Positions 8,804-30,854 of a stretch of 64,000 bases of DNA are shown piece after piece (the stretch's first letter is position 1; the number at the start of each line of letters is the position of its first letter). Under the pieces are notes generated by a model that was not told where the DNA came from, searched no databases, and was given only the letters and a program-made list of their open reading frames with translations. The translations under genes were made by a program, and so were the position numbers. Source of the DNA: an uncultured Chloroflexia bacterium (lineage in GTDB: Bacteria > Chloroflexota > Limnocylindria > QHBO01); the NCBI GenBank assembly GCA_963760875.1, contig CAVXEH010000003.1, positions 199,572 to 263,571 of the forward strand, written 5' to 3'.

Positions 8804-9574
8804 GTGCGCGACCCAGTATCGGTGGAACAGCACGTGGCGGATGACAAGTCCCCGGCGCCGCCTCCCGTCAGCGCGGCGGAGCGGATCCGGCAGGAGTTCG
8901 CCCAGGCCTGGGGCGCCATCGGCGCTGCCTGGGGCGTGGCGCCATCCACCGCCGCCGTCCAGGGCTACTTCCTGGTCCACGGCGGCCCGCTTACCGAGCC
9001 CGAGATCCGGCGCGCCCTGGGGCTCTCGCATCGCGCGGCGGCCATGGCCCTGGCGGAGTGCACGGAGTGGGGCCTGATCGAGCGCTCGGTTGGGGGACGA
9101 CGGACCGGCCGTCGCGGCCCGGAGGCGGCCGCCTACGTCGTGGTGGGCGACAACTGGGAGTGGTTTCGCCGCGTGGCGCGGGCCCGCAAGGAACGCGAGA
9201 CGGACCCGGTGGTCCCGGTCATCGAGCGCTGCGCGGAGCTCGCCGACCAGGAAGCGTCGCACGGCGGCCGCGATGCGGCGGAGCTGGAGGAGCTCAGCCA
9301 GCGCCTGGATGGCCTCCTGCACTTCGTCCACCTCTTCGACCGCGGGGTGGGCATCCTGGTCGATGCCTCTCCCACCGCCACGCAGCGCCTGCTCGCCCTG
9401 CTCGACGAGCTGGACGATGCGAGCCTCCGACGGCTGATGACGCTGCTCGAGACGGTCGAGCCCCACGACCTGGCGCGCGCCACGGACGCCCTCGCCAGCC
9501 TGCCGCCCTCGGCCGCCCGCCGGCTGGTGGGCCTGGCGGGCACGCCGGGGATCGGCCGCATCCTCGGCCGCTGA
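8804..9574 (+). CDS. Winged-HTH transcriptional regulator (MarR/GbsR-like)
   Basis: wHTH region PEIRRALGLSHRAAAMALAECTEWGLIERS, followed by a helical C-terminal domain. The family assignment is tentative. Confidence 0.5.
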   Translation: MRDPVSVEQHVADDKSPAPPPVSAAERIRQEFAQAWGAIGAAWGVAPSTAAVQGYFLVHGGPLTEPEIRRALGLSHRAAAMALAECTEWGLIERSVGGRRTGRRGPEAAAYVVVGDNWEWFRRVARARKERETDPVVPVIERCAELADQEASHGGRDAAELEELSQRLDGLLHFVHLFDRGVGILVDASPTATQRLLALLDELDDASLRRLMTLLETVEPHDLARATDALASLPPSAARRLVGLAGTPGIGRILGR

Positions 9575-9592
9575 GACGCTGACCCCGCGGAC

Positions 9593-11047
9593 CTACTCGC
9601 CCGAGCCGTCGTCCTCGAACACCCCGGCGCCCGCCACTGCGGCTGCAACGGCTCCCCCGCCCAGGGCCGCCGGAAGCGGCCGGTGCATGGGCGGTGACGT
9701 CACGTAGCGATCCACGATGGCCCGCGTCCCGCGAATCTTCAGCTGGTCGAAGAGGAAGCCGAACTTGTCCCGCAGGTGGCCGGCGATCTCGCCGGCCGCG
9801 GCATCGGGCAGGGTCCAGAGCTCTTCCTTGAACGGCCCAATCGCCTTCTTGCGCGTCTTGTAGACGAACTGCTCCTCCGTCTGCCCGTCCTTGCGCTCGT
9901 CGGCGCAGTGCTCCACGCACCAGGCCATCATCCGCTCGTGCAGCTCCGCGGGCAGGCCGCCGGCGTCGTACAGGATGTTCTGGAACCCGGTCGCCAGGTG
10001 GATCTCCGCCGTGCCGTTCCCGGGGAAGTGGTGGAACGCCTCGTCGGGGAGGGTCGAGGCGCCGTGCTGCACGCAGCCCGCCAGCCCGTACTCGTCGCGC
10101 GCCACCGCGGAGAGGCGCTGCATGGTGTCGAAGTCGATGTTCACGGTTGCCACGCTGCCGTCGGGCAGGACCACGCCGCCGTGGCTGGTGCCGGTCTGGA
10201 TGCTGACCTTGCTGACGCCCGCAGTCCCCGATCCGTGGAGCAGCCCGTAGTACTCGTTGAGGTAGGCGCGCAGCTCCTCCTCGGTCGAGTTGGCCTTGCC
10301 GACCTCGCCGATCTCACCACCAACCGAGATGGTTACGCCATTTGGCTCCAGCTGGCGGATCAGCGCGGTCAGCTCTGCGGTGTTCGTGGCGTTCGTCCGC
10401 TGCTGCTCGCGGACCGTGGGCTGCGACAGATCGACCAGCGTGCTCGAGTCGATGTCGATGTTGAGGAAGCCGGCGTTGACCGCCTCGGTCGTCAGCTCGC
10501 GCAGGCCCGCCATCTCGCGCTCCGGGTCCGCGGCCCACTTCGAGGCGTTGAACTGGAAGTGATCGCCCTGCAGGAAGACCGGACCGGGCCAGCCGCTGCG
10601 GATCGCGGCGGCCAGGATCACCGCCGTGTACTCCGCGGGGCGTTGGTCGGTGTAGGCCATCTCGCTCTTGGCGATCTCGAAGATCACCGCGCCCGCATCC
10701 CGCTCCATGGCGGCGGCGAAGGCCTGCCGGGCGGTGAGGTAGGCCACGGCTCGCACGTTGATGGCCGGCACGGTGAAGTCCGTGGGCGGGAACTCGCCGC
10801 GGCCGCGCGCCATGTAGAGCTCGTGGATGGAGGCAGACGGGCAGCCGAGCGCCTGGCTCGCCTCCCAGATGATCCAGCGCGCCGCATCGCGCCACTCGGC
10901 GTCCGCGTTGAAGACGGCCTCGCGCACGAGGCGGTCGATGACCTCGGCCCGGAAGCGGGCCGCGTTCGTGATGATGAGGCGGTCGCCCTCGATCGAGGCG
11001 GCGTCCGAGAGCAGGTCGCGCAGCTCCTGTGCAGAGGAGACGGTCAT
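9593..11047 (-). CDS. Class II (metal-dependent) fructose/ketose-bisphosphate aldolase family protein, long form (484 aa)
   Basis: Class II aldolase motifs are present. These are TVPAINV, QGDHFQF (an LDHG-like motif), ISVGGEIGEVG (E-L-G..GG.ED-like) and GTSHGGV. Confidence 0.6.
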   Translation of the reverse strand: MTVSSAQELRDLLSDAASIEGDRLIITNAARFRAEVIDRLVREAVFNADAEWRDAARWIIWEASQALGCPSASIHELYMARGRGEFPPTDFTVPAINVRAVAYLTARQAFAAAMERDAGAVIFEIAKSEMAYTDQRPAEYTAVILAAAIRSGWPGPVFLQGDHFQFNASKWAADPEREMAGLRELTTEAVNAGFLNIDIDSSTLVDLSQPTVREQQRTNATNTAELTALIRQLEPNGVTISVGGEIGEVGKANSTEEELRAYLNEYYGLLHGSGTAGVSKVSIQTGTSHGGVVLPDGSVATVNIDFDTMQRLSAVARDEYGLAGCVQHGASTLPDEAFHHFPGNGTAEIHLATGFQNILYDAGGLPAELHERMMAWCVEHCADERKDGQTEEQFVYKTRKKAIGPFKEELWTLPDAAAGEIAGHLRDKFGFLFDQLKIRGTRAIVDRYVTSPPMHRPLPAALGGGAVAAAVAGAGVFEDDGSGE

Positions 11048-11082
11048 ATCGGGTCAGTGCTCCATGGTGGTACGGCTCCATC

Positions 11083-11361
11083 CTAGCGAAGGGCGGAGAC
11101 CAGGGTGAAGGCCAGGAGGACGGCAACCGGCAGGCCAATGGTCGCAGCCAGCAGGTACCAGTCGCGGGCGGCGCGGGCGTCCGCGACCCGGCGCCGCACG
11201 AGCCCGCCGACCCAGGCCAGCACCGCGCTCAGGCCCGCGACGTACACCCCGGCGGCACTGACCACCACGCCAATGGCGAACGGTCGCACGGACCTGCAGC
11301 TCCCGAAGGCGAGCGGCCCGCCGGGGGGACACGGGCTCGCCAGCTCGATCGCGACCAGCAC
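11083..11361 (-). CDS. Hypothetical small membrane protein (start uncertain)
   Basis: This is the hydrophobic C-terminal part of track ORF 11083..11691. The upstream part overlaps the 11457..12077 gene. The only in-frame start after the overlap is a GTG near 11361. Confidence 0.2.
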   Translation of the reverse strand: MLVAIELASPCPPGGPLAFGSCRSVRPFAIGVVVSAAGVYVAGLSAVLAWVGGLVRRRVADARAARDWYLLAATIGLPVAVLLAFTLVSALR

Positions 11362-11456
11362 GGCGGCGACGGCGATGACCGCCGACGACCACGCGAGGTG
11401 GGCGGCGAGCGCCCGGGAGGGGCGCCGGGGTCCGATGGGCGTCCGGCCGGAGCGGC

Positions 11457-12077
11457 TCAGCCGGCCAGGTAGGCGGCCGAGGCGGCCTCGGCCTCCCGCG
11501 CCTCGCGACGCATCACGCGGCGGTACTCGACGGCGAAGAAGAGGAGCGCCAGGGCGCCCAGGCCGGCGACCACCACTCCGAAGCCAATGGCGATCGGGAT
11601 GGCGATGCCTGCCACGCTGACCACCGGGCCGTACCACGGCGAACCCTCCGGCGGAACCAGGGTGCCGCCGGCCATGTTGAAGGCCATCCACGGGATGAGG
11701 ACCAGGTAGAGGAGGAGGAGCTGCGCGAAGTCCACGATGCGGATGAAGGACCAGGCGAAGCCGCGACGCCCGCGGGCGGCCTGGGTCCAGAGCGCCACCA
11801 CGATCAGGACGATGAAGTTCCCGCCGCCAACCGCCGCCGCAAAGATGAACGAGGTCTCGGGCGTGAACTTGAGGAAGGGGATGTACTGGCTGAAGCCGTA
11901 GTAGACGTAGTTCGGGACGTACGCGATCAGGAAGTAGACGTACAGGAAGAGCGGGACGCCCTTGAGCACGGCGACCAGCCAGCTCTCGTAGCCGAACAGC
12001 AGCCAGCTCATGAAGTCATCGATCTCGCCGATGAGGTTGGCGCCGATGGCGCGCGATCGCGGGCGTGTCAGGCTCAT
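11457..12077 (-). CDS. Integral membrane protein, last gene of the cytochrome bc-type operon (possible extra subunit)
   Basis: Its start is 8 nt after the diheme cytochrome c stop. It has 5-6 TM helices rich in Y/F/W (YVYFLIAYVPNYVYYGFSQYIPF). Confidence 0.5.
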   Translation of the reverse strand: MSLTRPRSRAIGANLIGEIDDFMSWLLFGYESWLVAVLKGVPLFLYVYFLIAYVPNYVYYGFSQYIPFLKFTPETSFIFAAAVGGGNFIVLIVVALWTQAARGRRGFAWSFIRIVDFAQLLLLYLVLIPWMAFNMAGGTLVPPEGSPWYGPVVSVAGIAIPIAIGFGVVVAGLGALALLFFAVEYRRVMRREAREAEAASAAYLAG

Positions 12078-12084
12078 GGGTTCG

Positions 12085-12891
12085 TCACTGCTTCTGCGTG
12101 AGGAGGAAGGTGATGAGGGCCTGCAGCTGGTCGTCGGTCAGCTGCGAGCTCGGGAAGGCCGGCATCCCGGTGGCGGTGCCGCCGTTGTAGTTGTTCGAGG
12201 AGTCCCGGATCCAGTTCGTGAAGAACGTGGCCGGATCCTTGGCGTAGTCCGCCTTCATCTTGTCGAGGCCGCTGGGCGGGTTGGGAAGGCCGGTGCCAAT
12301 CTCGTTGCCCACGTTCTGCAGGCTCGGGAAGGTTCCGGGAACGCCGCCCAGGTCGGCCTGGTGGCAGCTGACGCAGCCAACCGAGTTGTAGACCTGCTTG
12401 CCGGCGTCCGCGGTGTTGGGCACCGGCGTGGAGCTGGCGCCCGCGTTGGCCTCCGCCCAGCTCGTCACCAGGGCCACCACGGCGTTGATCTGCTGGACGG
12501 TCAGGGGTCCGCCGACCTCGCTGCTCCACGCCGGCATCACCGAGCTGGGATTGCCTGAGACCACGATTCCGCCGTAGCTGACGACGAGGTGGACGTAGTC
12601 CGGGTTGATCTTGAGCTTGGTCGCGATGCTGGGGCTGTGGAGGTTCGGGGCGTTGAGTCCCGGCTGGCCCGGAACCGGGCCGCCCATCCCGTCATCGCCG
12701 TGGCAGCGCGCGCAGCCCGCGGACGAAGGGTCGTCCTTGTTGTTGGCGAAGACCTCCTTGCCGAACGCCAGCTGCGCCTCCTCCGCGGATTGCTGGCGCT
12801 GCGCGAGGCGCGACGAATCCGTGAGCCAGTAGAACATCGTGAAGAGCGCCAGTGCGCTCACGACGATGACCCCCAGCGTCTTGATCCGCAT
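12085..12891 (-). CDS. Diheme cytochrome c
   Basis: Two CXXCH motifs (CARCH and CVSCH), an N-terminal TM anchor, and a Met-containing distal ligand region. Confidence 0.8.
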   Translation of the reverse strand: MRIKTLGVIVVSALALFTMFYWLTDSSRLAQRQQSAEEAQLAFGKEVFANNKDDPSSAGCARCHGDDGMGGPVPGQPGLNAPNLHSPSIATKLKINPDYVHLVVSYGGIVVSGNPSSVMPAWSSEVGGPLTVQQINAVVALVTSWAEANAGASSTPVPNTADAGKQVYNSVGCVSCHQADLGGVPGTFPSLQNVGNEIGTGLPNPPSGLDKMKADYAKDPATFFTNWIRDSSNNYNGGTATGMPAFPSSQLTDDQLQALITFLLTQKQ

Positions 12892-12895
12892 GTCC

Positions 12896-13558
12896 TCAGC
12901 CCGCGCAGTGCTTGCCGGTCAGGTCGGCCGCGGTCCGCGGGTCGAACGTCACGGTGCCGACCGGCGGCCCGCTGACGACCTTGCCGGTGTCCACCGAGTA
13001 GACGCCCGCGTCGCTGACCGAGATGGGGAAATGATCCATGCCGCGGGGGGCCGGACCGTCGCGCTTCTCGCTGAGGATCGTGTACTTGCTGCCGTGGCAG
13101 AGGCACTCGAACCAGTGGCTCTTCTCGCACAGCGGGGGGATCTGGCAGCCCAGGTGGGGGCACTTGCGCCAGAGCGCCATCACCGAACGATCCTTGAAGG
13201 CCAGAGCCTCGTCGACCTTCGCGCCGGGATCGGGAACGTTGGCGTCCTTGCCCAGGACCAGGTCCATGCCGGCGGGCACGTTCACGAAGAAGAGCCGGGC
13301 CTTCTGGTAGGTGTACGGCTGACCCTTGGCCCAGTCGGGCCACACGGTGAGGATGTCCTTGGCCGAGCCCAGCGCGACCACGCCGCCGAAGCCGCCGGAA
13401 AGGTTCGGCCACAGGAACGCGAGGGTGCCGCCAATGAACTCCAGGCTCAGGAGGCCCATGCCGGCGCCCAGCATGCGCCGCATGAACGTGCGTCGGCTGA
13501 TCTCGCCAGCCGGCTGCTCGGTGACGGGCCCATAGGAGAGATTCGTGTTGCTGCTCAT
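12896..13558 (-). CDS. Rieske iron-sulfur subunit of the cytochrome bc/b6f-type complex
   Basis: CPHLGC and CLCHGS Rieske boxes. Tat-like motif SRRTFMRRMLGAGMG. The ATG at 13558 overlaps the subunit IV stop (ATGA). The longer track start at 13600 is rejected. Confidence 0.85.
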   Translation of the reverse strand: MSSNTNLSYGPVTEQPAGEISRRTFMRRMLGAGMGLLSLEFIGGTLAFLWPNLSGGFGGVVALGSAKDILTVWPDWAKGQPYTYQKARLFFVNVPAGMDLVLGKDANVPDPGAKVDEALAFKDRSVMALWRKCPHLGCQIPPLCEKSHWFECLCHGSKYTILSEKRDGPAPRGMDHFPISVSDAGVYSVDTGKVVSGPPVGTVTFDPRTAADLTGKHCAG

Positions 13559-14169
13559 AGGTTGAAGAAGATCCCTTCCCATGGCCAGACCCAGTTCCAT
13601 CCCGGGCCCCTGAAGAACGATCCGATGAAGGTCACCAGCAGGCCGCCGACCATCAGGGACAGGAAGAAGACCCAGATCAGCTTGCGGTCGCGGGCCGCCT
13701 TGAACGGAGACCGGTCGACGAAGGGGATCAGCGCGAGGCCCACCAGGTAGAGGGTCGGCACCAGGACGCCGGCAACGGTCGGGTTGAAGTAGCTCAGGAT
13801 CTCCTGGAGACCCAGGAAGTACCAGGGCGCCTTGGCGACGTGCGGCGTGTTGCCGGCGTTGGCCATCTGCTCGAGCGGCGCCTGGATGAGGAGCGACGTC
13901 ACGACGAGCAGCCCCATGATCAGGGCGGCCATGAGGAACTCTGCACGGAGCAGGTGCGGCCAGGTCAGCACCGTCTCGTCGGGTCGCTTGTCGACGCGGA
14001 CCATCGACTCCTGCTTGACGTAGGCGAGCAGGCGGAACCGCTCGGTTCCCGGCACGCCGGGAGGTCCGGGGAGCTTGGGCCCGCCGCCGCGCTCGACGAC
14101 CGGCACCTGGGGCGCCTGGGTCGGAGCGTTCTTGTCGGCGGTCGCGTTCGGCCGCTTCTCGATGGTCAT
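13555..14169 (-). CDS. Cytochrome bc complex subunit IV (C-terminal half of cytochrome b, PetD-like)
   Basis: PEWYFL-type motif (APWYFLGLQEILSYF) and three TM helices. Confidence 0.8.
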   Translation of the reverse strand: MTIEKRPNATADKNAPTQAPQVPVVERGGGPKLPGPPGVPGTERFRLLAYVKQESMVRVDKRPDETVLTWPHLLRAEFLMAALIMGLLVVTSLLIQAPLEQMANAGNTPHVAKAPWYFLGLQEILSYFNPTVAGVLVPTLYLVGLALIPFVDRSPFKAARDRKLIWVFFLSLMVGGLLVTFIGSFFRGPGWNWVWPWEGIFFNL

Positions 14170-14196
14170 GGATTCGCCATCCCTATCCTACCGCGC

Positions 14197-14931
14197 TCAT
14201 ACCGGGCCGCTGATGCCGCCGTCCTTCCGGATCCTCCAGAAGTGGACGATCATCAGGATCGCGGCGATGAGCGGGAAGGCGATCACGTGCATCACGTAGA
14301 AGCGCAGGAGCGTGCCCTGCCCAACCTCGATCCCGCCCAGGAGGAAGAGCTGCGACTGGTGCGAGAGGAGCGGCGCGTAGGTGGCCATCTGCGATCCCAC
14401 GGTGACGGCCCAGAAGGCGATCTGGTCCCAGGGCAGCAGGTAGCCGGTGAAGCTCAGCCACAGGGTCGAGAACAGGAGCAGGACCCCGATCACCCAGTTG
14501 AACTCGCGCGGCGGCTTGTAGGCGCCGTGGTAGAAGACGCGGATCATGTGCAGGAAGACGGTCAGCACCATGAGGTGCGCGGCCCAGCGGTGCATGTTGC
14601 GCACGAGCTCGCCAAAGGCCACCGAGTTCTCGATGGAGACGATGTCCTGGTACGCGCGGCTCACCGAGGGCACGTAGAAGAACATCAGGTAGAGGCCGGT
14701 GACCGTGAGCGCCAGGAACAGGAAGAAGCTGATCCCGCCCAGGCAGAAGGTGTACGTGTAGCGGACCGCGTGCTTCTTGACCCGCACCGGGTGCAGGTGC
14801 AGGAACACGTTGTTCATCACAGCCAGCGCGCGCGTCCGGCTGGTAGATGGGTACGGCTGGCGGAAAAGGGAGCGCCAGATCTGCGTCTGCTTCAGGCCGC
14901 GGTACCAGTCGCCGGGTCCGGGGAAGCTCAT
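14197..14931 (-). CDS. Cytochrome b6 (N-terminal half of cytochrome b, PetB-like)
   Basis: Two heme-ligand His pairs with b6 spacing (HRWAAH...14...H in helix B; [17 protein letters not shown] in helix D). C-terminus [12 protein letters not shown]. Its start overlaps the upstream gene's stop (ATGA at 14928-14931). Confidence 0.85.
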
Positions 14932-16895
14932 CGCCGCACCGCCATGCCGGCCTGCTGGCCGATCTGCCCCAGCACGTTGTCCTTGTAGCTCTCCAACAGA
15001 ACCTTCCCGTCAGGCGTGAACCGCTCCAGCTCGAGGCGGTCCATGGTGATGCAGTTGGTGGGACACCGCTCGACGCAGAGGTTGCAGCGGATGCAGCGCT
15101 CCTCGTCGATGATCATGGCAATGCCGCGGGGCCACGACTGGAACAGGTCGATCTCGGGATCGTCGCCGCCCACCTGCGCCTTGTCGATCATGTAGATCAC
15201 GCCCTCGGGGCAGACATCGGCGCAGAGCCCGCACAGGATACAGCGCGGTCCATCGATGTTGATGTTGTGGTTGCACTGCAGGCAGCGCTGCCCTTCCTCG
15301 ATGGCGCTCCGGGTGTCGTAGCCCACCTCGACCAGGCTCGTGAAGTCGCGGCGCAGCTCCGGCGGCGCCATGGGGACGTGGTGGCGGGTGAAAGCCTCGT
15401 AGTCCTTGGGCATGTCGTGCTCGAGCGCCTGGGTGATCACCGCCCGGTTGATGACCGGCAGCTCCTCCAGCGCCTCGCCGCGCTCGCCGCGGAGCCAGCG
15501 GTCGATGGACCGAGCGGCGCGGCGGCCACGCCCGGCGGACTCGATGATGGTCGCCGGGCCGGTGACGAAGTCGCCGCAGGCGAAGACGCCCGGGGTGCTG
15601 GTCTCGAACGTGTCGGGGTTGATGGTCAGGTAGCCGCGCTTGAACGCGAAGGCGTCGCCATCGGCCCCGTTGCCGTTCGTCGCGCCGTTGGCGGCAGGTG
15701 GCGGGGTGCGCCAGGCGGAGACCGATCCACCCGGCAGGACCGAGCGGCTGTCGGTCACGCCAAGGTGGCGGTTGAGGTGGCTGCCGTACTCGCCCAGGAC
15801 GTTGTTGTCGGCAGCCTGGCTGGTGCAGGGCACCACCATGTCGCAGGGAACCACGAACTCGCTGCCCGGGATGGGCTCGGCGGATCGGCGGCCGGAGGCG
15901 TCCGGCGGACCCAGGCGGGTGCGCTGGAACTTCATGCCCACGACCTTGCCGTGCTCGTCACCGATGACCTCCACCGGGGAGGCGAAGAACTCGAAGCGGA
16001 CCCCCTCGAAGCGGGTCTCGTGCTGCTCCTCCTCGTCCACGACCATCTCGTCGGGACCGCGGCGGTAGAGGATGGTCGAGGTCTTGGCGCCCAGGCGCAG
16101 CGCGGTGCGCGACGAGTCCATGGCGGTGTAGCCGCCGCCGATGACCAGCACGTGGTCGCCGACCCACTGCTCCTCGCCAAGGTTGGCGCGCTTGAGGAAG
16201 TCCACGCCGTAGATGACGCCGTCCAGCTCCTCACCCGGGACGTTCATGGCCACCGGGAACATGCAGCCGGTCGCCACCACCACCGCGTCATGCCGCGTGC
16301 GCAGCTCGTCCATGGTGACGTCGCGGCCGACCTCGACGTTGTAGTGGAACTCCACGCCGTGCTTGGCGACCCAGGCGACGTCGAGCTCGATGACGTCGCG
16401 GGGCAGGCGGAAGGCCGGCACACCGATGAGCGTCGTTCCGCCGCCCGACGGAAGGGCGTCGTACACGTGGACCTCGTGGCCGTCCGCGGCGAGGTCCTTG
16501 GCCACCGAGAGGCCCGCGGGCCCCGCGCCGATGACGCCCACGCTGTGCCCGGTGGGTGCCGCGACCTGCACGTTGTCGGGCATGTTGTTGGCGTAGTGCC
16601 AGTCCACCAGGAAGCGCTTCATGGCGCGGATGGCGAGCGGCTTGTCGATGTCCGCGCGGCGGCAGGCCTTCTCGCAGGGTGCGCTGCAGACGTACCCGCA
16701 GATGGCGGCGACCGGGTTCGGGTCGCGGGCCAGGATGTAGCCCTCCTCGAAGCGACCCTCCGCGGCCAGCATGAGGTAGCCGCGGCAGTTGGTGTTGACC
16801 GGGCAGCCTTCCTGGCACTCGATGTTGCACTGCAGCCAGTCGACGCCTACCTCGGCAGTCTGAAACCGGAGCGGAATTGCGTTCTCGGAGATCAA
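14928..16895 (-). CDS. GltD-like (glutamate synthase small subunit / SudA-like) FAD-NAD(P) oxidoreductase fused to a 2x[4Fe-4S] ferredoxin domain. First gene of the cytochrome b operon.
   Basis: N-terminal Cys cluster C..C...C. Two Rossmann folds ([13 protein letters not shown] and [12 protein letters not shown]). C-terminal ferredoxin motifs [26 protein letters not shown] and [12 protein letters not shown]. Confidence 0.8.
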
Positions 16896-17015
16896 GGGCG
16901 TCTTCGCTCGGTACGGTCCGCGCAGCGGATGTGAAGGGGCGAGGTCGCGGCGGTCCGATGCTACCGTCCCCGCGCTCAGCGTGTCAAAGCAATTTCCGCG
17001 GGTCCGCGTCGCCGA

Positions 17016-19142
17016 TCAGTGGAAGAAGTGCGCCTCCATGATCTTGCGGACGATGGGTGCCGCGAAGTCGCCGCCGTTCCCGAGGGGCACGGTCACGACC
17101 ACCGTGGCCACCGCGATGGTTGGGTTGTTCATGGGCGCGAACGCCGGGAACCAGGCGTCCGGGTCGGGGCCCCCGGTCTCCGCGGTCCCGCTCTTTCCGG
17201 CGGCAGCGATGGGAAAGCCCAGGAAGGCGCGGTGCGCGGTGCCCAGTGACGAGGTCACCACGGCGCGCATGGTGGTCACCACGTAGTCCATCACGTCGCG
17301 ACGCAGCTGGATGACATGGTGGTAGGTGGGATGGCTGTCGTAGACGACCGTCCCGTCGGGGAGCGTGGCCTTGAGCACGATCCGGGGCTGCCACAGGATC
17401 CCGCGGTTGCCCCATGCCGCGTACGCGGTCGCCAGCTGCAGCGGCGTGCCCAGGTAGGAGCCCTGGCCGATGGCCAGCTGGATCTGGTCGAAGGGTCCGT
17501 ACGGCGAGTACTTCCCGTTCCAGCGCTTGTGCGACTCGAAGTAGGCCGCGTCCGGCAGGATCCCGGCGCTCTCGGCCAGGAAGGGGATGCCGGTGACCTC
17601 ACCGAATCCGAAGTTGTGCAGGAGGTCGGTGAGCGCGGTCTTGTCCTTGTCGTACACGCGGACGCTGAGCGGCATGTAGGTCGTGTTGCAGGACAGCGCC
17701 ATGGTGTCGACCCAGGTACGCAGGCCCGGCAGTGTCTCGTACATCCAGTTCTTGAAGGTGAAACCGCTGTAGGTCCACGTGCCGGGGCACAGCATGCGGT
17801 CGGTGGTCTTGACCGTCCCGGTCTGCAGGGCGGCGCCCAGGGTGAACGGCTTGAAGTCCGAGCCGGCGGGGTACGCGCCCAGCACGGCCTTGTCGATGAT
17901 CTGCTCAGACGAGGGCTTCGCCAGGCGGGCGCCGCCCAGAGTGGTTCCCAGGGTCATGGCGTTGGGATCGAACCTCGGCAGGGAGGCAAGGACCCAGACG
18001 TCGCCGCTCTTCGGGTCGATGGCCGCGCTGCCCACGTGCGGGTAGCGGGCCATGGCCGCCTCCGCCGCGCGCTGCAGGACGGGGTTGATGGTGATGGTCA
18101 GGTCCGCGCCGGGGGTCATCGGCTTCTGCAGCACGCTCACCGGGTCGCCGCCGGGACGGACCGCCGAGAGGGTGAAGCCCGGCGAGCCGCGCAGGAGATC
18201 CTCGGCGCCTCGCTCGAGGCCGCTGCGCCCGACCCAGTCACCCGCCTGGTAGCCCTTGGCAGCGAGGGTCTTGAGATCCTCGGCCGTGACCTTGCTGACA
18301 TAGCCGATGGCCTGGCCGGCCAGGTACTCCTGGGGGTAGACGCGCATGCCGTCGCTCCGCGTCTCGGCGAAGACGGTGCCGCCGGCAGCCACGATCTTGC
18401 CCCGCGTCGATGTCTGCCGGGACAGCGCCAGGGTGCCGTCCGTGCCCAGCTCCGCGAAAAGCGAAGCGGGGCTCCAGCGAACCTGCCAGTCGGTGGCCCC
18501 GCGCACCAGGACCAGGGTGCGGTCGAGCATCACGTCTCCGAAGAGGTCCGTGGTGAGGTCGATGCTGGCGTCGACGGCCATGGCCGGCACGGGACCCGGA
18601 AGGACCGGCCCGGGGGTTGCGGGCTCGAAGGTGGCCGATGGCGCAGGCGATCCGCTCGGGGCGGGCGTGGGCGTGGGCGTTGCGGTGGTGCCCGGAGTCG
18701 GCTCCACGGAGGCCGATGCACCCGTCGCCCCGGGCAGCCCACCGCTCGGCGATGGCGCGACGCTGGGCGGGGGCGTCGGGACCAGGTCCGGCGGCGCCGG
18801 CTCCGGCGGCAGGGCGGTCGGCACCGCGTCGCCCGCGGTGGCCGTGACCTTCGTCAGGCGCACGAGGCCCGCGAGCTGCTGGTAGAGGCCCACGAAGCGG
18901 TCGTGCCCGTACGCCTGCTGGTCCGCCGGCGCGATGAGCTCCCACATCCGCTCCGTATTGCCCGCCATCCAGGCGGCCAGGAACTTGCGTGCCACCAGCG
19001 CCGCCTCGCTCACCGGTGGGATGGGCGCCGGCGTGGGGTACGGCGTGGGCGACGGTCCCGTTGAGCAGGCCGTCACGATCAGCACCACCGCCGCCAGCGC
19101 GACCCCTGCCCGCCCGGGTGCCCGCCCCCTCGCCGGCATCAT
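17016..19142 (-). CDS. Penicillin-binding protein (class B-like transpeptidase) with an N-terminal lipoprotein-type signal and a proline-rich linker
   Basis: Transpeptidase motifs SDFKPFT (SxxK) and KSGTAETG. The start is ATGATG at 19142 with lipobox LIVTAC, overlapping the LmbE stop. The longer track ORF to 19478 is rejected. Confidence 0.75.
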   Translation of the reverse strand: MMPARGRAPGRAGVALAAVVLIVTACSTGPSPTPYPTPAPIPPVSEAALVARKFLAAWMAGNTERMWELIAPADQQAYGHDRFVGLYQQLAGLVRLTKVTATAGDAVPTALPPEPAPPDLVPTPPPSVAPSPSGGLPGATGASASVEPTPGTTATPTPTPAPSGSPAPSATFEPATPGPVLPGPVPAMAVDASIDLTTDLFGDVMLDRTLVLVRGATDWQVRWSPASLFAELGTDGTLALSRQTSTRGKIVAAGGTVFAETRSDGMRVYPQEYLAGQAIGYVSKVTAEDLKTLAAKGYQAGDWVGRSGLERGAEDLLRGSPGFTLSAVRPGGDPVSVLQKPMTPGADLTITINPVLQRAAEAAMARYPHVGSAAIDPKSGDVWVLASLPRFDPNAMTLGTTLGGARLAKPSSEQIIDKAVLGAYPAGSDFKPFTLGAALQTGTVKTTDRMLCPGTWTYSGFTFKNWMYETLPGLRTWVDTMALSCNTTYMPLSVRVYDKDKTALTDLLHNFGFGEVTGIPFLAESAGILPDAAYFESHKRWNGKYSPYGPFDQIQLAIGQGSYLGTPLQLATAYAAWGNRGILWQPRIVLKATLPDGTVVYDSHPTYHHVIQLRRDVMDYVVTTMRAVVTSSLGTAHRAFLGFPIAAAGKSGTAETGGPDPDAWFPAFAPMNNPTIAVATVVVTVPLGNGGDFAAPIVRKIMEAHFFH

Positions 19143-19858
19143 CGCGCCAGCATCACGCGGCGGAAGCCCTCGGCGGCCCGGTAGCCGGCCCGCTCGCCGA
19201 GCTCCTCGGAGGTGCGGCGCAGCCACCGCTCGGTATCGGCGAACTCTCGGAACTGGCTCTCGTGGCAGCGCAGTGCGGCGATCTTGCGATCGAGGGTCTC
19301 GCCGATGTCCACCAGCTGGTTCGCCTCGTTCGTGCTCCACAGGTAGAGCTCCGCGACCTTCCACGGTCCCAGGCCGGCCTCGATGTGCTGGTGGAGGTTC
19401 AACGGGTCGCGAGCCGTGGGGAAGACGGCGTCCACGGTGACCATGCCGACTGCCCGGTGATCGGGATGGTTGACCCATTCGTTGTTCACGAACAGGACCG
19501 TGGGATCGTGCGTCATGACGATCTCCGGCTGGAAGCGCCTGATGGCGTACGTGATCCGCTCGCGGAGGCGGAGGCTGGCTTCGACCTGTCCATCCGGCTC
19601 ATCGAGGAAGTCGACTCCCTCGACACCCAGCTCCGCCGCGGCGCTGCGCTGCTCCGCCTCCCTGAGCACGCCGAGCTCCCGCGGGTCGACGCCCGGATCG
19701 TCGCTTCCCTTGTCGCCGCGCGTGACGAGCAGGTAGCGCACCCGCGTTCCCTCGTCGATCCAGCGCGCGACGGTGCCCGCAGCACCGAACTCGATGTCAT
19801 CGGGATGGGCCGCGACCACGAGGACGCGTTCTGGGGTCGGGAGTCGGTCGGTCGGCAT
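19139..19858 (-). CDS. PIG-L/LmbE-family N-acetylglucosaminyl deacetylase
   Basis: VAAHPDDIEFG, the HxDH region (VNHPDHRAVG) and a Zn-binding pattern. The start is taken at MPTDRLPTPERVLVVAAHPDD. Confidence 0.75.
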   Translation of the reverse strand: MPTDRLPTPERVLVVAAHPDDIEFGAAGTVARWIDEGTRVRYLLVTRGDKGSDDPGVDPRELGVLREAEQRSAAAELGVEGVDFLDEPDGQVEASLRLRERITYAIRRFQPEIVMTHDPTVLFVNNEWVNHPDHRAVGMVTVDAVFPTARDPLNLHQHIEAGLGPWKVAELYLWSTNEANQLVDIGETLDRKIAALRCHESQFREFADTERWLRRTSEELGERAGYRAAEGFRRVMLAR

Positions 19859-19989
19859 GGAGTGCGTGTGGTCAGGCCTTGGCTCGCTACGGGCACGTCG
19901 CGCCTTGGTGCGCGGTCGACGGCCGGGCAATCCTAGCAGCCGCCGGGGTGAGGCCCGGGATCAGCCGGTCTTGCCGTCCATGCGCCGTG

Positions 19990-22827
19990 TCACCCGGGCA
20001 GCCGCGCTGGCTGGAGCTCCGGCTCGCGCCCGGCCCCGCCGGCGATCATCGCGACTGTCGCGAGGGCGACGCGCGGAGGTGCGGTGCGCGATGGCAGGCG
20101 GACCAGCGAATCGCGTGGCGCCGAAAGCGCCGACTCTGCCCAGTCCGCCACCGCGTCGTCATGGCTGAAGAGGATCACCTGGCGCTCGTGGCTGAGCTCA
20201 TGGAGAACCCGCAGCAGGCCCGCTCGTCGCTCGCCGTCCGCCTGCGCGGTGACCTCGTCGAGGAGCAGCGGCGCCGATTCATTGGTGGTGACCAGGTGCT
20301 GGGCCATGGCCACCCGCAGCAGGAGGTAGATCTGCTCCCTGGTGCCGGCCGAGAGCAGCCGAGCCGTCCGCCACGCGCCGCTGGCAGCCTCGCGTACCTG
20401 GATCGACAGGTCCGCCGGATCGACGCTCACCTCCCCGTAGGCGCCACCGCTGACGATGGGCAGCCAGCGCTGCACGGCGGCGGCGAGCACGGGCGCCAGG
20501 TCCCGGTGCACGCGCTCCTGCGCCTGCCGAAGGAGGTGCAACGTCTCGTCGACCGTCGCCGCCAATGCCTGCACCCGTTCCAGCTCGGAGGACGCGGCCA
20601 CGACCGCTTCCTCCGCCTCGGCCACGTCCGGAAGGCCATCCCGCAGGACCTCGAGCCTCCCGCGCAGCTCGTGCGCCGCGCGATCCGCAGCAGAAGCGGC
20701 ATCCCGCCGCTCCTCGAGCGCGTGCTCGAGGTCGCCTCGACGCGCCAGCTCCTCGACGGCCGCCGGGTCGAGGCCCGTCGCGAGCGCGGCCGCCTCCCGG
20801 GACAGCCGCTCCGCTTCGTCGTTGAGCGCCGCCAGCGGACGTCCGTCCAGGAGTCGAGACAGCTCGTGCCACTCCTCGATGGCTGCCTGGTTGGCGCCGA
20901 TGCTCTCCGAACGACGCTGCTGCCATGCTCGCAGCGCCGAGACAAGGTGCTCGGGATCACCGTCGCCGATGCCGATGCCCACCCGGTGGGAGGCATCGGC
21001 CAGGGCGCCTGCGGCCGCGGCGATGGCACTGTCCACCGACGCGGCCGTCTCCTCCGCCGCCCGGCGAGCCGCGAGCTCGCGGCGGATGGAGTCGCCCCGC
21101 GCCGCCGCCTCCGCCTGGACCCGGCGCCGCTCACAGGCGGCCTCGTACGCGACCCACGCCCGTCGCGGGTCCACCTCGCCGGTGATCCCTCGCTCGGAAA
21201 GGGCGTCCACCAGGCGTTGCGCCGCTGCCCGGGCCCGCCCGATCGCGCGCTCGCGCCGGACCCGCCACTCCCCGGCCCGCTCCGCGTCACCGATCCGGTC
21301 GACCGTGCGGTCGGCCAGCGCCTCCAGGGACGCCGGGTCCTCCGGCCAGCCGCGGTCGCGTGCCTCGGCTGCCGCCGACGTCCGCTGCGCATTCGCCCGT
21401 GCCTGCGCCTCACGGTACGGCGCGAGGGCCGCCTCCGCGTTGGCCACGCGCTGCGCGGCGGCACGTCGCGTGGCGCCGCTGCGGAATCCCCGGGCGGCGA
21501 TGGCGACACCCGCGGCCGCCAGCACGACCCCCGCGCCGAGCATGAGCGTCAGCGCGATGAGGACGCCGACCGCCAGGAAGCCGGCGCCCACGGCAAAGGG
21601 CAGGACCGAGGGTGGTGGGCCCGCCGCCGCGGAGGCACGGGCCGCGGCCAGCTCGTCCTCCATCGCGGCGGCGCCCGCCGGCATTGGCGCGGCAAGGCGC
21701 CTGGCGATGGATCGCATGGCGTCCACCGTGGCGGCGTCCGCGGAGGGACCCGCTTCCGGCTCATCGCCGAGCATGGTCATCGCCTCCTCCGCGCGTTCCA
21801 GCTCACGAAGCAGGTCGCGCAGCGCGGGATCCGGCCGCTGGTCTCCGGCCGGGACGGGCGGCAGCCCGTCCAGCTCGGCGCGCAGGGCCGCGCTCGAGGC
21901 GCCGTCCAGGACGACCGGCGCCGGCCGGCGGTCCCAGCCCACGATGGCCGCGGCGACCGCGTCGGCGTCGGCGTCGCGTTCGCTGAGAGCAGGGGGCGCC
22001 TCCGCATGGCGGGCAGCGAGCTCGGCGGCCCGCGCGGCCCGTGCGTTGAGGCGGTGGGCGGCAACGAGGGCGTCGGCTGCAACGGCCACCCCCAGCTCGC
22101 GGCGTGCTTTCGCCAGGCGCTGCTCCGCGTCCTCGGCCCGCCGCGCATGCTCGAGGTGCTCCGCGTGGCGCGCTCGCGCGACCTGCAGCGCCTCGGTCGC
22201 CGCCGCAAGACGGACGCGGGCCGCCCGCAGGGGCCCCCTTGCGACCGCGGTATCCGCGCCGACCGCTTCCTTGCGGAACTCGACGAGGCGCTCGATCGCC
22301 TGGGCCGCCGTGGCATCCGTACCGCGGGTGGCGGCCGCGCGCTGCATCTGCTCCTGCAGCTGGTCCGCGGCATCGGCCACGGCCAGGATGTCGGCCTGGC
22401 TGACCGACACCGTCGCCGCGAACGAGTCGCGATCCAGTCCCAGCCAGCGGGAGGCGTCCGGCGTGCCATCGAGGATCTCGTCGCTGACGTCGCGACCCAG
22501 ACCGACGTCGATCGCCCGGCAGGCCACCTTTCCGGCGAGGTCCTGGTGGATGTCGATGGTCCGCCCGTCGTCGAGGTCGAGGCGGGCTTCCACCTCCCAG
22601 CGATCCGCGACGTCCCACGGCCGGTGCCGGTCCGCCGTCTCCGCCTCGGCGTTCGTGGCGCGGCCACGCCCGCGCCGGAGGCCGGTGAGGGCGAGCCGTG
22701 TCGCGGCGTGCCAGCTGGACTTCCCCGCCTCGTTGGGCCCGGCAACGACGGTCATGCCCGGCGCCAGCTCGAGCGTCTCGTTCTGGAACGGCCCGAAGGC
22801 GCGCGCCACGACCCGCTGGATGCGCAC
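19990..22827 (-). CDS. SbcC/Rad50-like ABC ATPase (945 aa) with a central transmembrane hairpin
   Basis: N-terminus VRIQRVVARAFGPF...GMTVVAGPNEAGKSS (Walker A). C-terminus has Q-loop/signature/D-loop LLLDEV and an H-loop. The GTG start at 22827 overlaps the SbcD stop. The mid-protein segment VLPFAVGAGFLAVGVLIALTLMLGAGVVLAAAGVAIAARGF replaces a CxxC hook. The track start at 23622 is rejected. Confidence 0.75.
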   Translation of the reverse strand: MRIQRVVARAFGPFQNETLELAPGMTVVAGPNEAGKSSWHAATRLALTGLRRGRGRATNAEAETADRHRPWDVADRWEVEARLDLDDGRTIDIHQDLAGKVACRAIDVGLGRDVSDEILDGTPDASRWLGLDRDSFAATVSVSQADILAVADAADQLQEQMQRAAATRGTDATAAQAIERLVEFRKEAVGADTAVARGPLRAARVRLAAATEALQVARARHAEHLEHARRAEDAEQRLAKARRELGVAVAADALVAAHRLNARAARAAELAARHAEAPPALSERDADADAVAAAIVGWDRRPAPVVLDGASSAALRAELDGLPPVPAGDQRPDPALRDLLRELERAEEAMTMLGDEPEAGPSADAATVDAMRSIARRLAAPMPAGAAAMEDELAAARASAAAGPPPSVLPFAVGAGFLAVGVLIALTLMLGAGVVLAAAGVAIAARGFRSGATRRAAAQRVANAEAALAPYREAQARANAQRTSAAAEARDRGWPEDPASLEALADRTVDRIGDAERAGEWRVRRERAIGRARAAAQRLVDALSERGITGEVDPRRAWVAYEAACERRRVQAEAAARGDSIRRELAARRAAEETAASVDSAIAAAAGALADASHRVGIGIGDGDPEHLVSALRAWQQRRSESIGANQAAIEEWHELSRLLDGRPLAALNDEAERLSREAAALATGLDPAAVEELARRGDLEHALEERRDAASAADRAAHELRGRLEVLRDGLPDVAEAEEAVVAASSELERVQALAATVDETLHLLRQAQERVHRDLAPVLAAAVQRWLPIVSGGAYGEVSVDPADLSIQVREAASGAWRTARLLSAGTREQIYLLLRVAMAQHLVTTNESAPLLLDEVTAQADGERRAGLLRVLHELSHERQVILFSHDDAVADWAESALSAPRDSLVRLPSRTAPPRVALATVAMIAGGAGREPELQPARLPG

Positions 22828-30753: not shown

Positions 30754-30854
30754 ACCGCGCGTCGCTCCTTTCCATGCCGCTGCGCATCCGCGCAGCGGCC
30801 CATTGGCCTCCAAGAACGACGAACGGCGCACCACGAGGTGCGCCGCGAAGGTGA

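What the first reader, a model, noticed from the sequence alone, without database searches (positions are those of the whole stretch)
11083..16895. A cytochrome b6f-like complex operon begins with a GltD-like NAD(P)/FAD oxidoreductase-ferredoxin fusion
Read directly from the sequence, these genes are translationally coupled on the minus strand by ATGA or near overlaps.
- A 655-aa GltD/SudA-like protein with an N-terminal Cys cluster, two Rossmann folds and a C-terminal 2x[4Fe-4S] ferredoxin.
- Cytochrome b6.
- Subunit IV.
- A Tat-type Rieske protein.
- A diheme cytochrome c.
- One or two small membrane proteins.

A split cytochrome b (b6 plus subunit IV) is the b6f/Firmicute-type arrangement. 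In a high-GC background one usually expects a fused QcrB.

A NAD(P)-binding flavoprotein embedded in a Rieske/cytochrome b operon is rare. It has been discussed for anammox planctomycete complexes as a possible module coupling quinol oxidation to NAD(P)+ reduction (electron bifurcation/confurcation).

By inference, this locus may encode such a complex. It may link the quinone pool to both a c-type cytochrome and the NAD(P)H pool.
Basis: partly seen in the sequence, partly recalled or inferred. Interest (0 to 1): 0.75.

Follow-up and report, generated by a model that had tools for sequence, protein, structure and literature searches.

The report
NADPH-linked Rieske/cytochrome b6 respiratory operon
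A Chloroflexota (Limnocylindria) genome encodes a cytochrome b6-type quinol-oxidising complex with a built-in NADPH-binding iron-sulfur flavoprotein; this arrangement is already described in anammox bacteria and other phyla, but its function has never been tested.

Summary
Seven co-oriented minus-strand genes (16895..11083) encode:
- a 655-aa GltD/NfnB-like FAD/NADPH protein with an N-terminal Cys domain and a C-terminal 2x[4Fe-4S] domain
- cytochrome b6 (four His ligands plus the CLGG heme-cn motif)
- subunit IV (Qo motif APWY)
- a Tat-type Rieske protein (CHGSKY)
- a membrane-anchored diheme cytochrome c
- two lineage-specific small membrane proteins

The organism is Chloroflexota, class Limnocylindria, not an actinobacterium, so a fused QcrB was never expected.

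The arrangement is not rare. Of the 80 best genome loci holding a relative of the flavoprotein, 33 have cytochrome b plus subunit IV immediately downstream, in about ten phyla. All linked flavoproteins form one clade.

The literature already describes this kind: Kartal 2013, Dibrova 2013/2017 ("subfamily G"), Kao & Hunte 2014 ("APWY clade") and Hauser 2025.

The window's b6, subunit IV and Rieske are 53/41/44% identical to a Kuenenia-type operon. His45 of b6, which matches the predicted ligand of an extra interface heme, is invariant in all linked cytochromes b.

The Kuenenia flavoprotein has the same architecture (36% identity) but falls outside the window's clade.

Verdict: a new member of a known but biochemically uncharacterised kind. 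The direction of electron flow (NADPH production or NADPH oxidation) is unresolved.

The parts
16958..16987 (-). Sigma-70-like promoter match (TTGACA-18-TAGCAT) in the 120-nt gap between the upstream PBP gene and the flavoprotein gene
   Evidence: It is the only promoter-like match in 9000..20000 (0.4 expected from shuffles). It is a consensus match only, not evidence of function.
14928..16895 (-). 655-aa GltD/NfnB-like FAD/NADP(H) oxidoreductase (OR). It has an N-terminal Cys-rich FeS domain, an invariant RCxxC motif and a C-terminal 2x[4Fe-4S] ferredoxin domain. No transmembrane helix is predicted.
   Evidence: Pfam and NCBIfam. PDB relatives: NfnA/NfnABC/Stn and NfnB at E 1e-101 to 1e-86, and FwdF for residues 540-623. 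Cys map and GxGxxG motifs. 'YRR' NADPH-type motif. Member of a clade strictly linked to cytochrome b genes.
14197..14931 (-). Cytochrome b6 (244 aa). It has heme ligands His114/128/215/230, the CLGG heme-cn motif (Cys63) and an N-terminal extension carrying the invariant His45.
   Evidence: ATGA overlap with the OR stop codon.
13555..14169 (-). Subunit IV (204 aa, 3 TM). Qo motif APWY. WPH...E motif before TM1.
   Evidence: Pfam Cytochrom_B_C 1e-10. TM segments. Motif conservation.
12896..13558 (-). Rieske [2Fe-2S] protein (220 aa from the ATGA-overlap start). Twin-arginine signal SRRTFMRR. Cluster motifs CPHLGC...CLCHGSKY with the Ser/Tyr pair.
12085..12891 (-). Diheme class-I cytochrome c (268 aa) with an N-terminal membrane anchor. 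Heme motifs CARCH and CVSCH.
   Evidence: Cytochrome c genes follow the core genes in nearly all linked loci.
11457..12077 (-). 206-aa membrane protein (4-5 hydrophobic segments), no known family. Found only in close Limnocylindria relatives.
11083..11456 (-). Small membrane protein (about 3 TM). Start codon uncertain: the raw ORF runs to 11691 and overlaps the previous gene. Conserved only in close Limnocylindria relatives.
   Evidence: GC3 of 0.93 in the non-overlapping part. 65% identity to L001 from residue 84. HMM search. In-frame start list.

Best explanation
The seven genes encode one membrane complex of the 'APWY / subfamily G' Rieske-cytochrome b type.

On the P side, menaquinol is oxidised at a Qo site formed by b6 and subunit IV. 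One electron goes to a probably high-potential Rieske cluster and on to the anchored diheme cytochrome c, toward a terminal oxidase.

The second electron crosses the membrane through hemes bL and bH. On the N side it meets heme cn (Cys63) and probably an extra b heme held between the two His45 residues of the b6 dimer. There the soluble 655-aa subunit docks. Its chain of about four FeS clusters connects these hemes to FAD and an NADP(H) site.

I favour the published anammox model for the direction. Qo-site bifurcation lets the exergonic quinol-to-cytochrome-c branch pay for reducing NADP+ to NADPH. The complex would then act as a respiration-driven NADPH generator that still releases protons on the P side.

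Shown: gene content, motifs, homology and the strict flavoprotein-cytochrome b gene linkage. Inferred: physical association, cofactor occupancy, quinone type, redox potentials and direction.

My confidence that the flavoprotein is a genuine N-side subunit wired to the b hemes is about 0.8. My confidence in net NADPH production is about 0.45.
For: - Translational coupling: ATGA overlap of the OR and b6 genes, and the only promoter-like site lies upstream of the OR gene.
- In 33 of the 80 best genome loci for OR relatives, cytochrome b plus subunit IV lie directly downstream, across about ten phyla.
- All 34 linked ORs, the window's included, form one clade. The clade contains none of the 47 evaluable unlinked homologs.
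- The window's Rieske protein is closest in the PDB to the two chains (9rk4, 9rk3) that match the Kuenenia Rieske proteins. Hauser et al. 2025 measured these at +303 and +335 mV (PMC12954380).
- It carries the same Ser/Tyr pair, CHGSKY. Kao & Hunte class this pair as 'High' and report APWY-clade Rieske proteins as Mid+ to High (PMC4122944).
- b6 His45 is invariant in all 33 linked cytochromes b and aligns with His43 of the Kuenenia-type b6. That residue is the AF3-predicted ligand of an extra interface heme leading to the flavoprotein.
- The OR has the NADPH-type 'YRR' motif, like NfnB/GltD relatives and the Kuenenia protein. Inference from Rossmann-fold rules: an NADPH-specific site suits anabolic reductant supply better than respiratory fuel.
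- The invariant Cys set fits about four clusters between FAD and the surface.
Against: - No biochemical data exist for any member outside anammox bacteria. Even there only the Rieske fragments and complexome co-migration have been studied (PMC12954380, PMC5600118).
- The OR has no membrane anchor, so association is inferred.
- The Kuenenia OR is not in the window's OR clade: it fell inside in 3 of 50 bootstraps.
- Arg511 of Kuste4570, predicted to contact the extra heme, is Leu557 here.
- The Qi-side features are intact: Cys63, Lys52 and Arg235, and the WPH...E motif in subunit IV. Electrons at bH/cn would therefore be expected to reduce menaquinone rather than climb to NADP+ unless gated.
- With a full membrane potential the energetics of NADP+ reduction are marginal (my estimate).
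- GltD-type modules normally oxidise NADPH.
- The quinone type and the presence of other complex III enzymes in this genome are unknown.
Confidence: 0.45

Rival explanations
1. Same complex, opposite direction. NADPH is oxidised by the flavoprotein. Electrons run down the FeS chain and the interface heme to bH/cn and reduce menaquinone at the Qi site. The complex would then be a hard-wired NADPH:menaquinone (overall NADPH:cytochrome c) oxidoreductase that uses the Q cycle. It would be a fixed version of the proposed FNR/ferredoxin-to-heme-cn route of chloroplast b6f, and would match Dibrova and Mulkidjanian's 'membrane-anchored dehydrogenase' ancestor.
For: - The path is thermodynamically downhill and needs no gating (established potentials: NADP+ -320 mV, menaquinone about -70 mV).
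- GltD, DPD and SudA modules act as NADPH-oxidising input modules (family knowledge; PDB relatives).
- Heme cn and Qi-side residues are retained.
- Most hosts in the survey belong to phyla that, as far as I know, are mainly heterotrophic. Those have no obvious need for reverse electron flow (the lifestyles were not checked here).
- Most other linked ORs carry an acidic 'LES/LET' motif in place of YRR. This suggests NADH use, which fits a dehydrogenase role.
- Dibrova et al. 2017 argue for a dehydrogenase-anchor origin.
Against: - It gives no reason for the high-potential Rieske signature in a probable menaquinone organism.
- Burning NADPH in respiration is unusual.
- Hauser et al. argue that this mode wastes energy when complex I is present.
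Confidence: 0.3
2. The flavoprotein is co-transcribed but is not a subunit. It would be a soluble NADPH-dependent FeS enzyme that acts on another acceptor, or a redox sensor or maturation factor for the complex.
For: - No transmembrane segment in the OR.
- Association has never been shown for this clade.
- The heme-contacting Arg511 of the Kuenenia protein is not conserved.
Against: - Strict clade-wide adjacency to cytochrome b across about ten phyla and two gene orders.
- ATGA coupling to b6.
- Invariant His45 in exactly these cytochromes b.
- In Kuenenia the homologous-architecture protein is reported within the complexes (PMC5600118).
Confidence: 0.12
3. It is an ordinary glutamate synthase small subunit (GltD) or an NfnB that happens to lie next to a bc-type operon.
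For: Shared Fer4_20 plus Pyr_redox_2 architecture, and strong similarity to GltD and NfnB.
Against: - All GltD/GltA equivalog models score far below cut-off: 323 against 472, 260 against 483, 194 against 448.
- No gltB or nfnA in the neighbourhood.
- There is an extra C-terminal dicluster domain.
- It belongs to the cytochrome-b-linked clade.
Confidence: 0.02
4. It is a Geobacter-type ExtP/ExtQ (Cbc6) module for selenite or tellurite reduction, or for extracellular electron transfer.
For: b6 passes the NCBIfam equivalog cytb_ExtP: 295.5 bits against a cut-off of 290.
Against: - Subunit IV scores 57 against a cut-off of 150 for ExtQ.
- No porin, rhodanese or multiheme Ext genes lie within the window around the operon.
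- The c-type partner is a simple diheme class-I protein.
Confidence: 0.02

Closest known systems
Kuenenia stuttgartiensis Rieske/cytochrome b complexes kuste4569-4574 and kustd1480-1485 (Kartal 2013; de Almeida 2016; Hauser 2025, PMC12954380)
   Same: - Split b6 plus subunit IV.
- CxGG heme-cn motif.
- APWY Qo motif.
- Rieske protein with the Ser/Tyr pair.
- Conserved N-terminal His (His43 there, His45 here).
- Operon-embedded flavoprotein with the same domain order: N-terminal Cys motifs, FAD, NADPH 'YRR', RCxxC, 2x[4Fe-4S].
- Identities to a Kuenenia-type contig (L082): b6 53%, subunit IV 41%, Rieske 44%, OR 36% over its full length.
   Different: - The c-type partners here are a single diheme class-I cytochrome, not a hexa- or octaheme cytochrome plus an HAO-like protein.
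- Subunit IV has 3 TM rather than 5.
- Two extra lineage-specific membrane proteins are present.
- The gene order is OR-b6-IV-Rieske-c, against Rieske-OR-b6-IV-c.
- The OR lies in a different clade from the Kuenenia OR.
- Arg511 is not conserved.
- No anammox or hydroxylamine-oxidoreductase-like genes lie in the operon or the window; the host's lifestyle is not known.
Cytochrome b 'subfamily G' (Dibrova et al. 2013/2017, PMC5600118), which I equate with the 'APWY clade' (Kao & Hunte 2014, PMC4122944)
   Same: - Short cytochrome b with CxGG.
- APWY motif.
- Predicted Mid+ to High Rieske potential.
- Scattered distribution across phyla, including Chloroflexi.
- Reported co-occurrence with large NAD(P)-binding FeS proteins.
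   Different: - None in kind: this locus is a further member.
- My survey adds three points: the linked flavoproteins are one clade, His45 is invariant, and the NAD(P) site splits into YRR and LES types.
- That the two published clades are the same group is my inference from the shared features, not a stated result.
Cyanobacterial/plastid cytochrome b6f, with bound FNR (Zhang et al. 2001, cited in PMC5600118)
   Same: - b6 is the best PDB match at E 8e-48.
- Split b6 and subunit IV.
- Heme-cn Cys.
- 14-residue spacing of the helix-D His pair.
- Conceptually, an NADP(H) flavoenzyme on the N side.
   Different: - No cytochrome f: a diheme class-I cytochrome c instead.
- APWY, not PEWY.
- A 59-residue N-terminal extension on b6 carrying His45.
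- The flavoprotein is a GltD/NfnB-type FeS protein encoded in the operon, not plant-type FNR.
- No PetG/L/M/N genes are recognisable.
Firmicute QcrABC and actinobacterial QcrCAB menaquinol:cytochrome c reductases
   Same: A respiratory Rieske/b complex with a membrane-bound c-type cytochrome, diheme as in Actinobacteria.
   Different: - Cytochrome b is not fused: NF050120 scores 104 bits against a cut-off of 500.
- Subunit IV is not fused to cytochrome c.
- The Qo motif is not PDWY.
- QcrC and QcrA models score far below cut-off.
- Those complexes have no flavoprotein subunit.
NfnB / Bfu-type NfnA-StnC / GltD NADPH-FAD-FeS modules
   Same: Core fold and cofactor motifs. PDB E-values run from 1e-101 to 1e-64.
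   Different: No NfnA, GltB or Bfu partners nearby. It has a dedicated C-terminal dicluster domain and strict linkage to cytochrome b genes.

Membership tests
Flavoprotein-associated Rieske/cytochrome b complex (anammox R/b type; subfamily G / APWY clade) | Four-helix cytochrome b6 with two His pairs, plus a separate subunit IV | tested here: met
   His114/128 and His215/230. Pfam Cytochrome_B 6e-43 and Cytochrom_B_C 1e-10.
Flavoprotein-associated Rieske/cytochrome b complex (anammox R/b type; subfamily G / APWY clade) | APWY Qo motif in subunit IV | tested here: met
   KAPWYFLGLQE. The motif is invariant in 33 linked loci. Clade definition in PMC4122944.
Flavoprotein-associated Rieske/cytochrome b complex (anammox R/b type; subfamily G / APWY clade) | NAD(P)-binding FeS flavoprotein gene inside the operon | tested here: met
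   ATGA overlap with b6. The domains are listed. The linkage recurs in 33 of 80 loci.
Flavoprotein-associated Rieske/cytochrome b complex (anammox R/b type; subfamily G / APWY clade) | Flavoprotein orthologous to Kuste4570/Kustd1483 | tested here: not met
   Same architecture and 36% full-length identity. In the NJ tree, however, the Kuenenia-type protein lies outside the linked clade (inside in 3 of 50 bootstraps). It is closer to Bfu/NfnA-like proteins, at up to 49%.
Flavoprotein-associated Rieske/cytochrome b complex (anammox R/b type; subfamily G / APWY clade) | N-terminal His of cytochrome b predicted to ligate an extra interface heme (Kuste4571 His43) | tested here: met
   His45 in 'NVFLHLHP'. 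It is invariant in all 33 linked cytochromes b and in the Kuenenia-type b6. Heme binding itself is not testable here.
Flavoprotein-associated Rieske/cytochrome b complex (anammox R/b type; subfamily G / APWY clade) | Rieske protein of the high-potential type, related to Kuste4569/Kustd1480 | tested here: met
   Best PDB hits are 9rk4 and 9rk3, at E 2e-10 and 6e-9. The Ser/Tyr pair CHGSKY is present. The potential itself was not measured.
Flavoprotein-associated Rieske/cytochrome b complex (anammox R/b type; subfamily G / APWY clade) | Physical association of the flavoprotein with the membrane core, and electron exchange with NAD(P) | not testable with these tools
   This needs purification, complexome profiling or cryo-EM.
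Flavoprotein-associated Rieske/cytochrome b complex (anammox R/b type; subfamily G / APWY clade) | Multiheme or HAO-like c-type partner and five-TM subunit IV (Kuenenia-specific traits) | tested here: not met
   The partner is a diheme class-I cytochrome c and subunit IV has 3 TM. L082 has multiheme and octaheme genes and a 240-aa subunit IV.
Canonical cytochrome b6f | Cytochrome f (PetA), PEWY motif, small Pet subunits | tested here: not met
   No PetA-like gene. The motif is APWY. The downstream membrane proteins match no family.
Actinobacterial QcrCAB | Fused QcrB, and QcrA/QcrC at equivalog level | tested here: not met
   NF050120 104 against 500, NF050121 29 against 275, NF050122 41 against 200.
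Glutamate synthase small subunit (GltD) | Score above the TIGR01317/01318/01316 cut-offs, and a partner gltB | tested here: not met
   194 against 448, 260 against 483, 323 against 472. No gltB in the neighbourhood.
Geobacter ExtP/ExtQ | ExtP and ExtQ equivalog scores plus Ext conduit genes | tested here: not met
   ExtP 295.5 against 290 (met). ExtQ 57 against 150 (not met). No Ext-type neighbours.

The most novel reading that the evidence does not exclude
In this Limnocylindria lineage, the b6-type complex uses Qo-site quinol bifurcation to make NADPH. Many other bacterial phyla carry the same flavoprotein clade and may do a related reaction with NADH. This would be a respiration-driven, membrane-bound route to low-potential reductant, so far proposed only for anammox bacteria. 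The conserved His45 would hold a fourth, interface heme that taps the low-potential chain.
Probability: 0.35. Interest if true: 0.75.

Novelty: new member of a known kind. Interest (0 to 1): 0.4.

Why it matters
Rieske/cytochrome b complexes with an attached NAD(P) flavoprotein have been known from genomes for over a decade. No one has shown what they do.

The Limnocylindria version is a stripped-down member. It keeps heme cn, has an NADPH-type site and uses a plain diheme cytochrome c instead of the anammox multiheme machinery.

The survey here shows three things. The flavoprotein clade is dedicated to these complexes across about ten phyla. The predicted extra-heme ligand is invariant. The nucleotide site comes in two flavours.

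This gives concrete handles for testing whether Qo bifurcation can drive NAD(P)+ reduction, or whether these are NAD(P)H dehydrogenases built on a Q-cycle engine. The handles are a His45 mutant, YRR against LES specificity, and possibly cultured relatives of the surveyed MAGs. For this particular window the result is confirmation and placement, not discovery.

Tried and rejected
1. A 48-sequence alignment was too divergent for the genome scan. A 10-sequence alignment worked.
2. Literature searches for Limnocylindria respiratory chains returned nothing useful. Whether this genome has another complex III, ACIII, PntAB or menaquinone genes could not be checked: only 64 kb is available and it holds no other respiratory genes.
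3. I expected the Kuenenia flavoprotein to fall in the window's clade. It did not, so I dropped the orthology claim.
4. I looked for the Kuste4570 Arg511 equivalent. It is Leu557.
5. I searched for homologs of the two small membrane proteins outside close Limnocylindria with iterated HMMs and found none. Their role stays unknown.
6. Neighbourhood clustering over 28 linked loci looked for recurrent oxidase, transhydrogenase or NADP-enzyme genes that could fix the direction. Only the core genes recur, plus a cupredoxin-like gene and a CxxCH protein in about 10 mostly acidobacterial loci.
7. I considered and rejected the GltD, NfnB, ExtPQ, QcrCAB and canonical b6f assignments.
8. I did not run structure prediction. 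Coordinates are not returned, so Cys-cluster geometry and docking could not have been measured. The sequence-level PDB hits already reproduce the NfnABC and FwdF similarities reported for Kuste4570.

Full report
**What is there**

The minus strand between 16895 and 11083 carries seven co-oriented genes.

- **Flavoprotein ("OR", 655 aa).** It has Fer4_20 (residues 21-104), Pyr_redox_2 and Pyr_redox (118-359) and a C-terminal dicluster ferredoxin domain (551-615).
  - Motifs are GAGPAG at residue 123, GGGYTA at 253, and two CxxCxxCxxxC motifs at 552 and 601.
  - There is also an RCxxC pair at 538/541. It is invariant across a 48-member alignment of 32-56% identical homologs.
- **Cytochrome b6.** It has the two His pairs (114/128, 215/230) and the CLGG heme-cn motif.
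- **Subunit IV.** Three TM segments and the Qo motif APWY.
- **Rieske protein.** A twin-arginine signal and the motifs CPHLGC...CLCHGSKY.
- **Cytochrome c.** An N-terminal anchor and two CxxCH motifs.
- **Two membrane proteins without family matches**.
  - Both show GC3 above 0.9 and are conserved in relatives.
  - They occur only in close Limnocylindria.

Junctions:
- ATGA overlap at OR/b6
- ATGA overlap at subunit IV/Rieske
- a 27-nt gap between b6 and subunit IV
- gaps of 4 and 7 nt further down

The Rieske start is therefore 13558, not 13600. The only promoter-like consensus in the region sits in the 120-nt gap upstream of the OR gene.

**Whose genome**

More than 120 protein clusters at 82-100% identity to the OR come from MAGs labelled Chloroflexota or Candidatus Limnocylindria. 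The same block, from the PBP gene through the complex to an aldolase-like gene, is syntenic in those loci. NCBIfam models for actinobacterial QcrA, QcrB and QcrC all score far below cut-off.

**Is the flavoprotein really part of the system?**

I took HMMER representatives of the OR family and scanned one genome per GTDB species with a 10-sequence alignment.

- Of the 80 best loci, 33 have cytochrome b and subunit IV directly downstream of the OR homolog, usually with a Rieske gene and c-type cytochrome genes.
- By record title, the hosts include:
  - Limnocylindria and Ardenticatenales (Chloroflexota)
  - several Acidobacteriota lineages, including Chloracidobacterium
  - Verrucomicrobiae and Victivallales
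  - Waddliaceae
  - Planctomycetales
  - Nitrospirae
  - Zixibacteria, Eisenbacteria and Abyssobacteria
  - Acidimicrobiia
- Two gene orders occur: OR-b6-IV-Rieske-c (Chloroflexota, Acidimicrobiia) and OR-Rieske-b-IV.
- In a neighbour-joining tree, all 34 linked ORs form one clade.
  - The clade also holds one sequence at a contig end (L071), which could not be evaluated.
  - None of the 47 clearly unlinked homologs falls inside.

A dedicated flavoprotein clade that stays next to cytochrome b through gene-order changes and across phyla is strong evidence for a functional partnership. It does not prove physical binding.

**Comparison with what is known**

The literature already describes this kind.

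- Hauser et al. 2025 (PMC12954380) summarise the Kuenenia complexes kuste4569-74 and kustd1480-85.
  - These have b6, subunit IV, Rieske, multiheme cytochromes and a putative NAD(P) oxidoreductase.
  - The paper restates the Kartal proposal that Qo bifurcation drives NAD(P)+ reduction.
  - It reports Rieske potentials of +303 and +335 mV.
  - It presents AF3 models with four FeS clusters and an unexpected b heme bound by His43 of both cytochrome b monomers.
- Dibrova et al. [quoted passage not shown]
- Kao & Hunte 2014 (PMC4122944) define an uncharacterised "APWY clade" that includes Chloroflexi. Its predicted Rieske potentials are Mid+ to High, and they class the Ser-Tyr pair as High.

My tests place the window in this group.

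- The two best solved relatives of its Rieske protein are 9rk4 and 9rk3. Their depositor names and the 85% match of L082 point to the Kuenenia Rieske proteins.
- I recovered a Kuenenia-type contig, L082, through that sequence. The window proteins compare to it as follows:

| Window protein | Identity to L082 | Note |
|---|---|---|
| b6 | 53% | |
| Subunit IV | 41% | |
| Rieske | 44% | |
| OR | 36% | over residues 2-621 |

- The b6 N-terminal extension reads NVFLHLHP. Its first His (His45) aligns with His43 of the Kuenenia-type protein and is invariant in all 33 linked cytochromes b.
- That N-terminal extension lay outside the local alignment with cyanobacterial b6, which begins at residue 60.

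**Differences from the anammox complexes**

- The c-type partner is a plain diheme protein.
- Subunit IV has three helices, not five.
- Arg511 of Kuste4570 corresponds to Leu557.
- The Kuenenia-type OR falls outside the window's OR clade. It was inside in 3 of 50 bootstraps, and it is up to 49% identical to Bfu/NfnA-like proteins against 36% to the window. The module was therefore either recruited twice or has diverged strongly. I do not claim orthology for this subunit.

**Variation inside the linked clade**

- The heme-cn Cys is kept in Limnocylindria, in one Nitrospirae locus and in the Kuenenia-type b6. It is lost in most other members, many of which have a fused long cytochrome b.
- The motif after the second Rossmann beta-strand is YRR in Limnocylindria, in the Kuenenia-type OR and in Nfn/GltD-like proteins. 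In the seven other linked sequences I displayed it is LES/LET.
  - By the general Rossmann rule this suggests NADP(H) in the first group and NAD(H) in the second. This is an inference.
- Limnocylindria ORs carry extra Cys residues: Cys23 and Cys37 in all eight sequences compared, and Cys357 and Cys615 in six of them. Close relatives of the window also carry an insertion of about 43 residues.

**Mechanism**

The anatomy supports a quinol:cytochrome c oxidoreductase whose N-side hemes are wired through FeS clusters to FAD and NADP(H). I put the probability at about 0.8. The direction is not settled.

For NADPH production:
- the Rieske signature shared with the measured high-potential Kuenenia proteins
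- the NADPH-type nucleotide site

For NADPH oxidation:
- it is downhill and needs no gating
- the Qi-side features are intact
- GltD-type modules usually act as input modules
- the phyla in the survey are, as far as I know, mostly heterotrophic (not checked here)
- most other clade members have an NADH-type site

I commit to NADPH production at about 0.45 and give the reverse about 0.3. Neighbourhood analysis gave no discriminating genes.

**Rejected assignments**

- **GltD or NfnB proper:** scores are below cut-off and no partner gene is nearby.
- **Geobacter ExtPQ:** only ExtP barely passes its cut-off.
- **Canonical b6f, Firmicute Qcr and actinobacterial Qcr:** see the membership tests.

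**Verdict**

This is a genuine and well-read observation. It is a new, Limnocylindria member of a known but biochemically uncharacterised class. It is not rare and not categorically new.

Noticed in passing
window 9593-11047 (-), with 6841-8124 (-) and 4475-6844 (-): A 484-aa class-II-aldolase-like gene starts 35 nt after the last operon gene and is syntenic with the operon in Limnocylindria loci. It is followed by an aminotransferase-like ORF (not scanned against Pfam in the window) and a transketolase-like gene. It may be co-transcribed with the operon. Any link to NADPH or pentose metabolism is speculation.
   Followed up: partly
window 14197-14931 (-): The b6 protein passes the NCBIfam equivalog cut-off for 'selenite/tellurite reduction operon b-type cytochrome ExtP' (295.5 against 290), although the locus has no Ext context. 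Automated pipelines would probably misname it.
   Followed up: yes
OR residues 248-282 in the alignment of the genome loci (for example L009, L014, L021, L026, L039, L042 against the window and L007): The nucleotide-site motif after beta-2 is YRR in Limnocylindria, the Kuenenia-type protein and Nfn/GltD-like proteins. In the seven other cytochrome-b-linked flavoproteins displayed it is LES/LET, often with a 30-50-residue insertion. This suggests an NADPH/NADH split within the clade.
   Followed up: partly
L082 304-2061 against the linked clade: The Kuenenia-type flavoprotein is closer to Bfu/NfnA-like multidomain proteins (up to 49% identity) than to the widespread cytochrome-b-linked clade (about 36-40%). 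This hints at two independent recruitments of the module to Rieske/b complexes.
   Followed up: partly
L009 7274-7942 and about 9 other loci, mostly Acidobacteriota: A gene that looks cupredoxin-like from its sequence motifs (not checked against Pfam) sits immediately upstream of the flavoprotein gene. In 11 loci a roughly 577-aa protein with an N-terminal CxxCH lies further upstream. These are possible alternative high-potential partners.
   Followed up: no
window OR residues about 375-417 (roughly 15645-15775): A low-complexity insertion of about 43 residues (…[27 protein letters not shown]…) is absent from homologs at or below 59% identity.
   Followed up: no
window 11083-11691 (-): The last small membrane-protein gene has no canonical start codon between the preceding stop (11457) and the start of conservation. 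It either overlaps the previous gene by up to 235 nt or uses a non-canonical start.
   Followed up: partly
L016 (record labelled Bifidobacteriaceae MAG): A 5.2-kb contig binned as Bifidobacteriaceae carries the OR-Rieske-b-IV operon. This is probably a mis-binned contig.
   Followed up: no
window 30846-30949 (-) and 52408-52481 (+): A TPP riboswitch (68.5 bits) and one tRNA gene.
   Followed up: no
window 44087-45283 (-) and 47208-48935 (-); 35032-38508 (+): Ku and ATP-dependent DNA ligase genes, a likely NHEJ pair. Also a 1158-aa protein with a MerR-type HTH, multiple GAF domains and a GGDEF domain.
   Followed up: no
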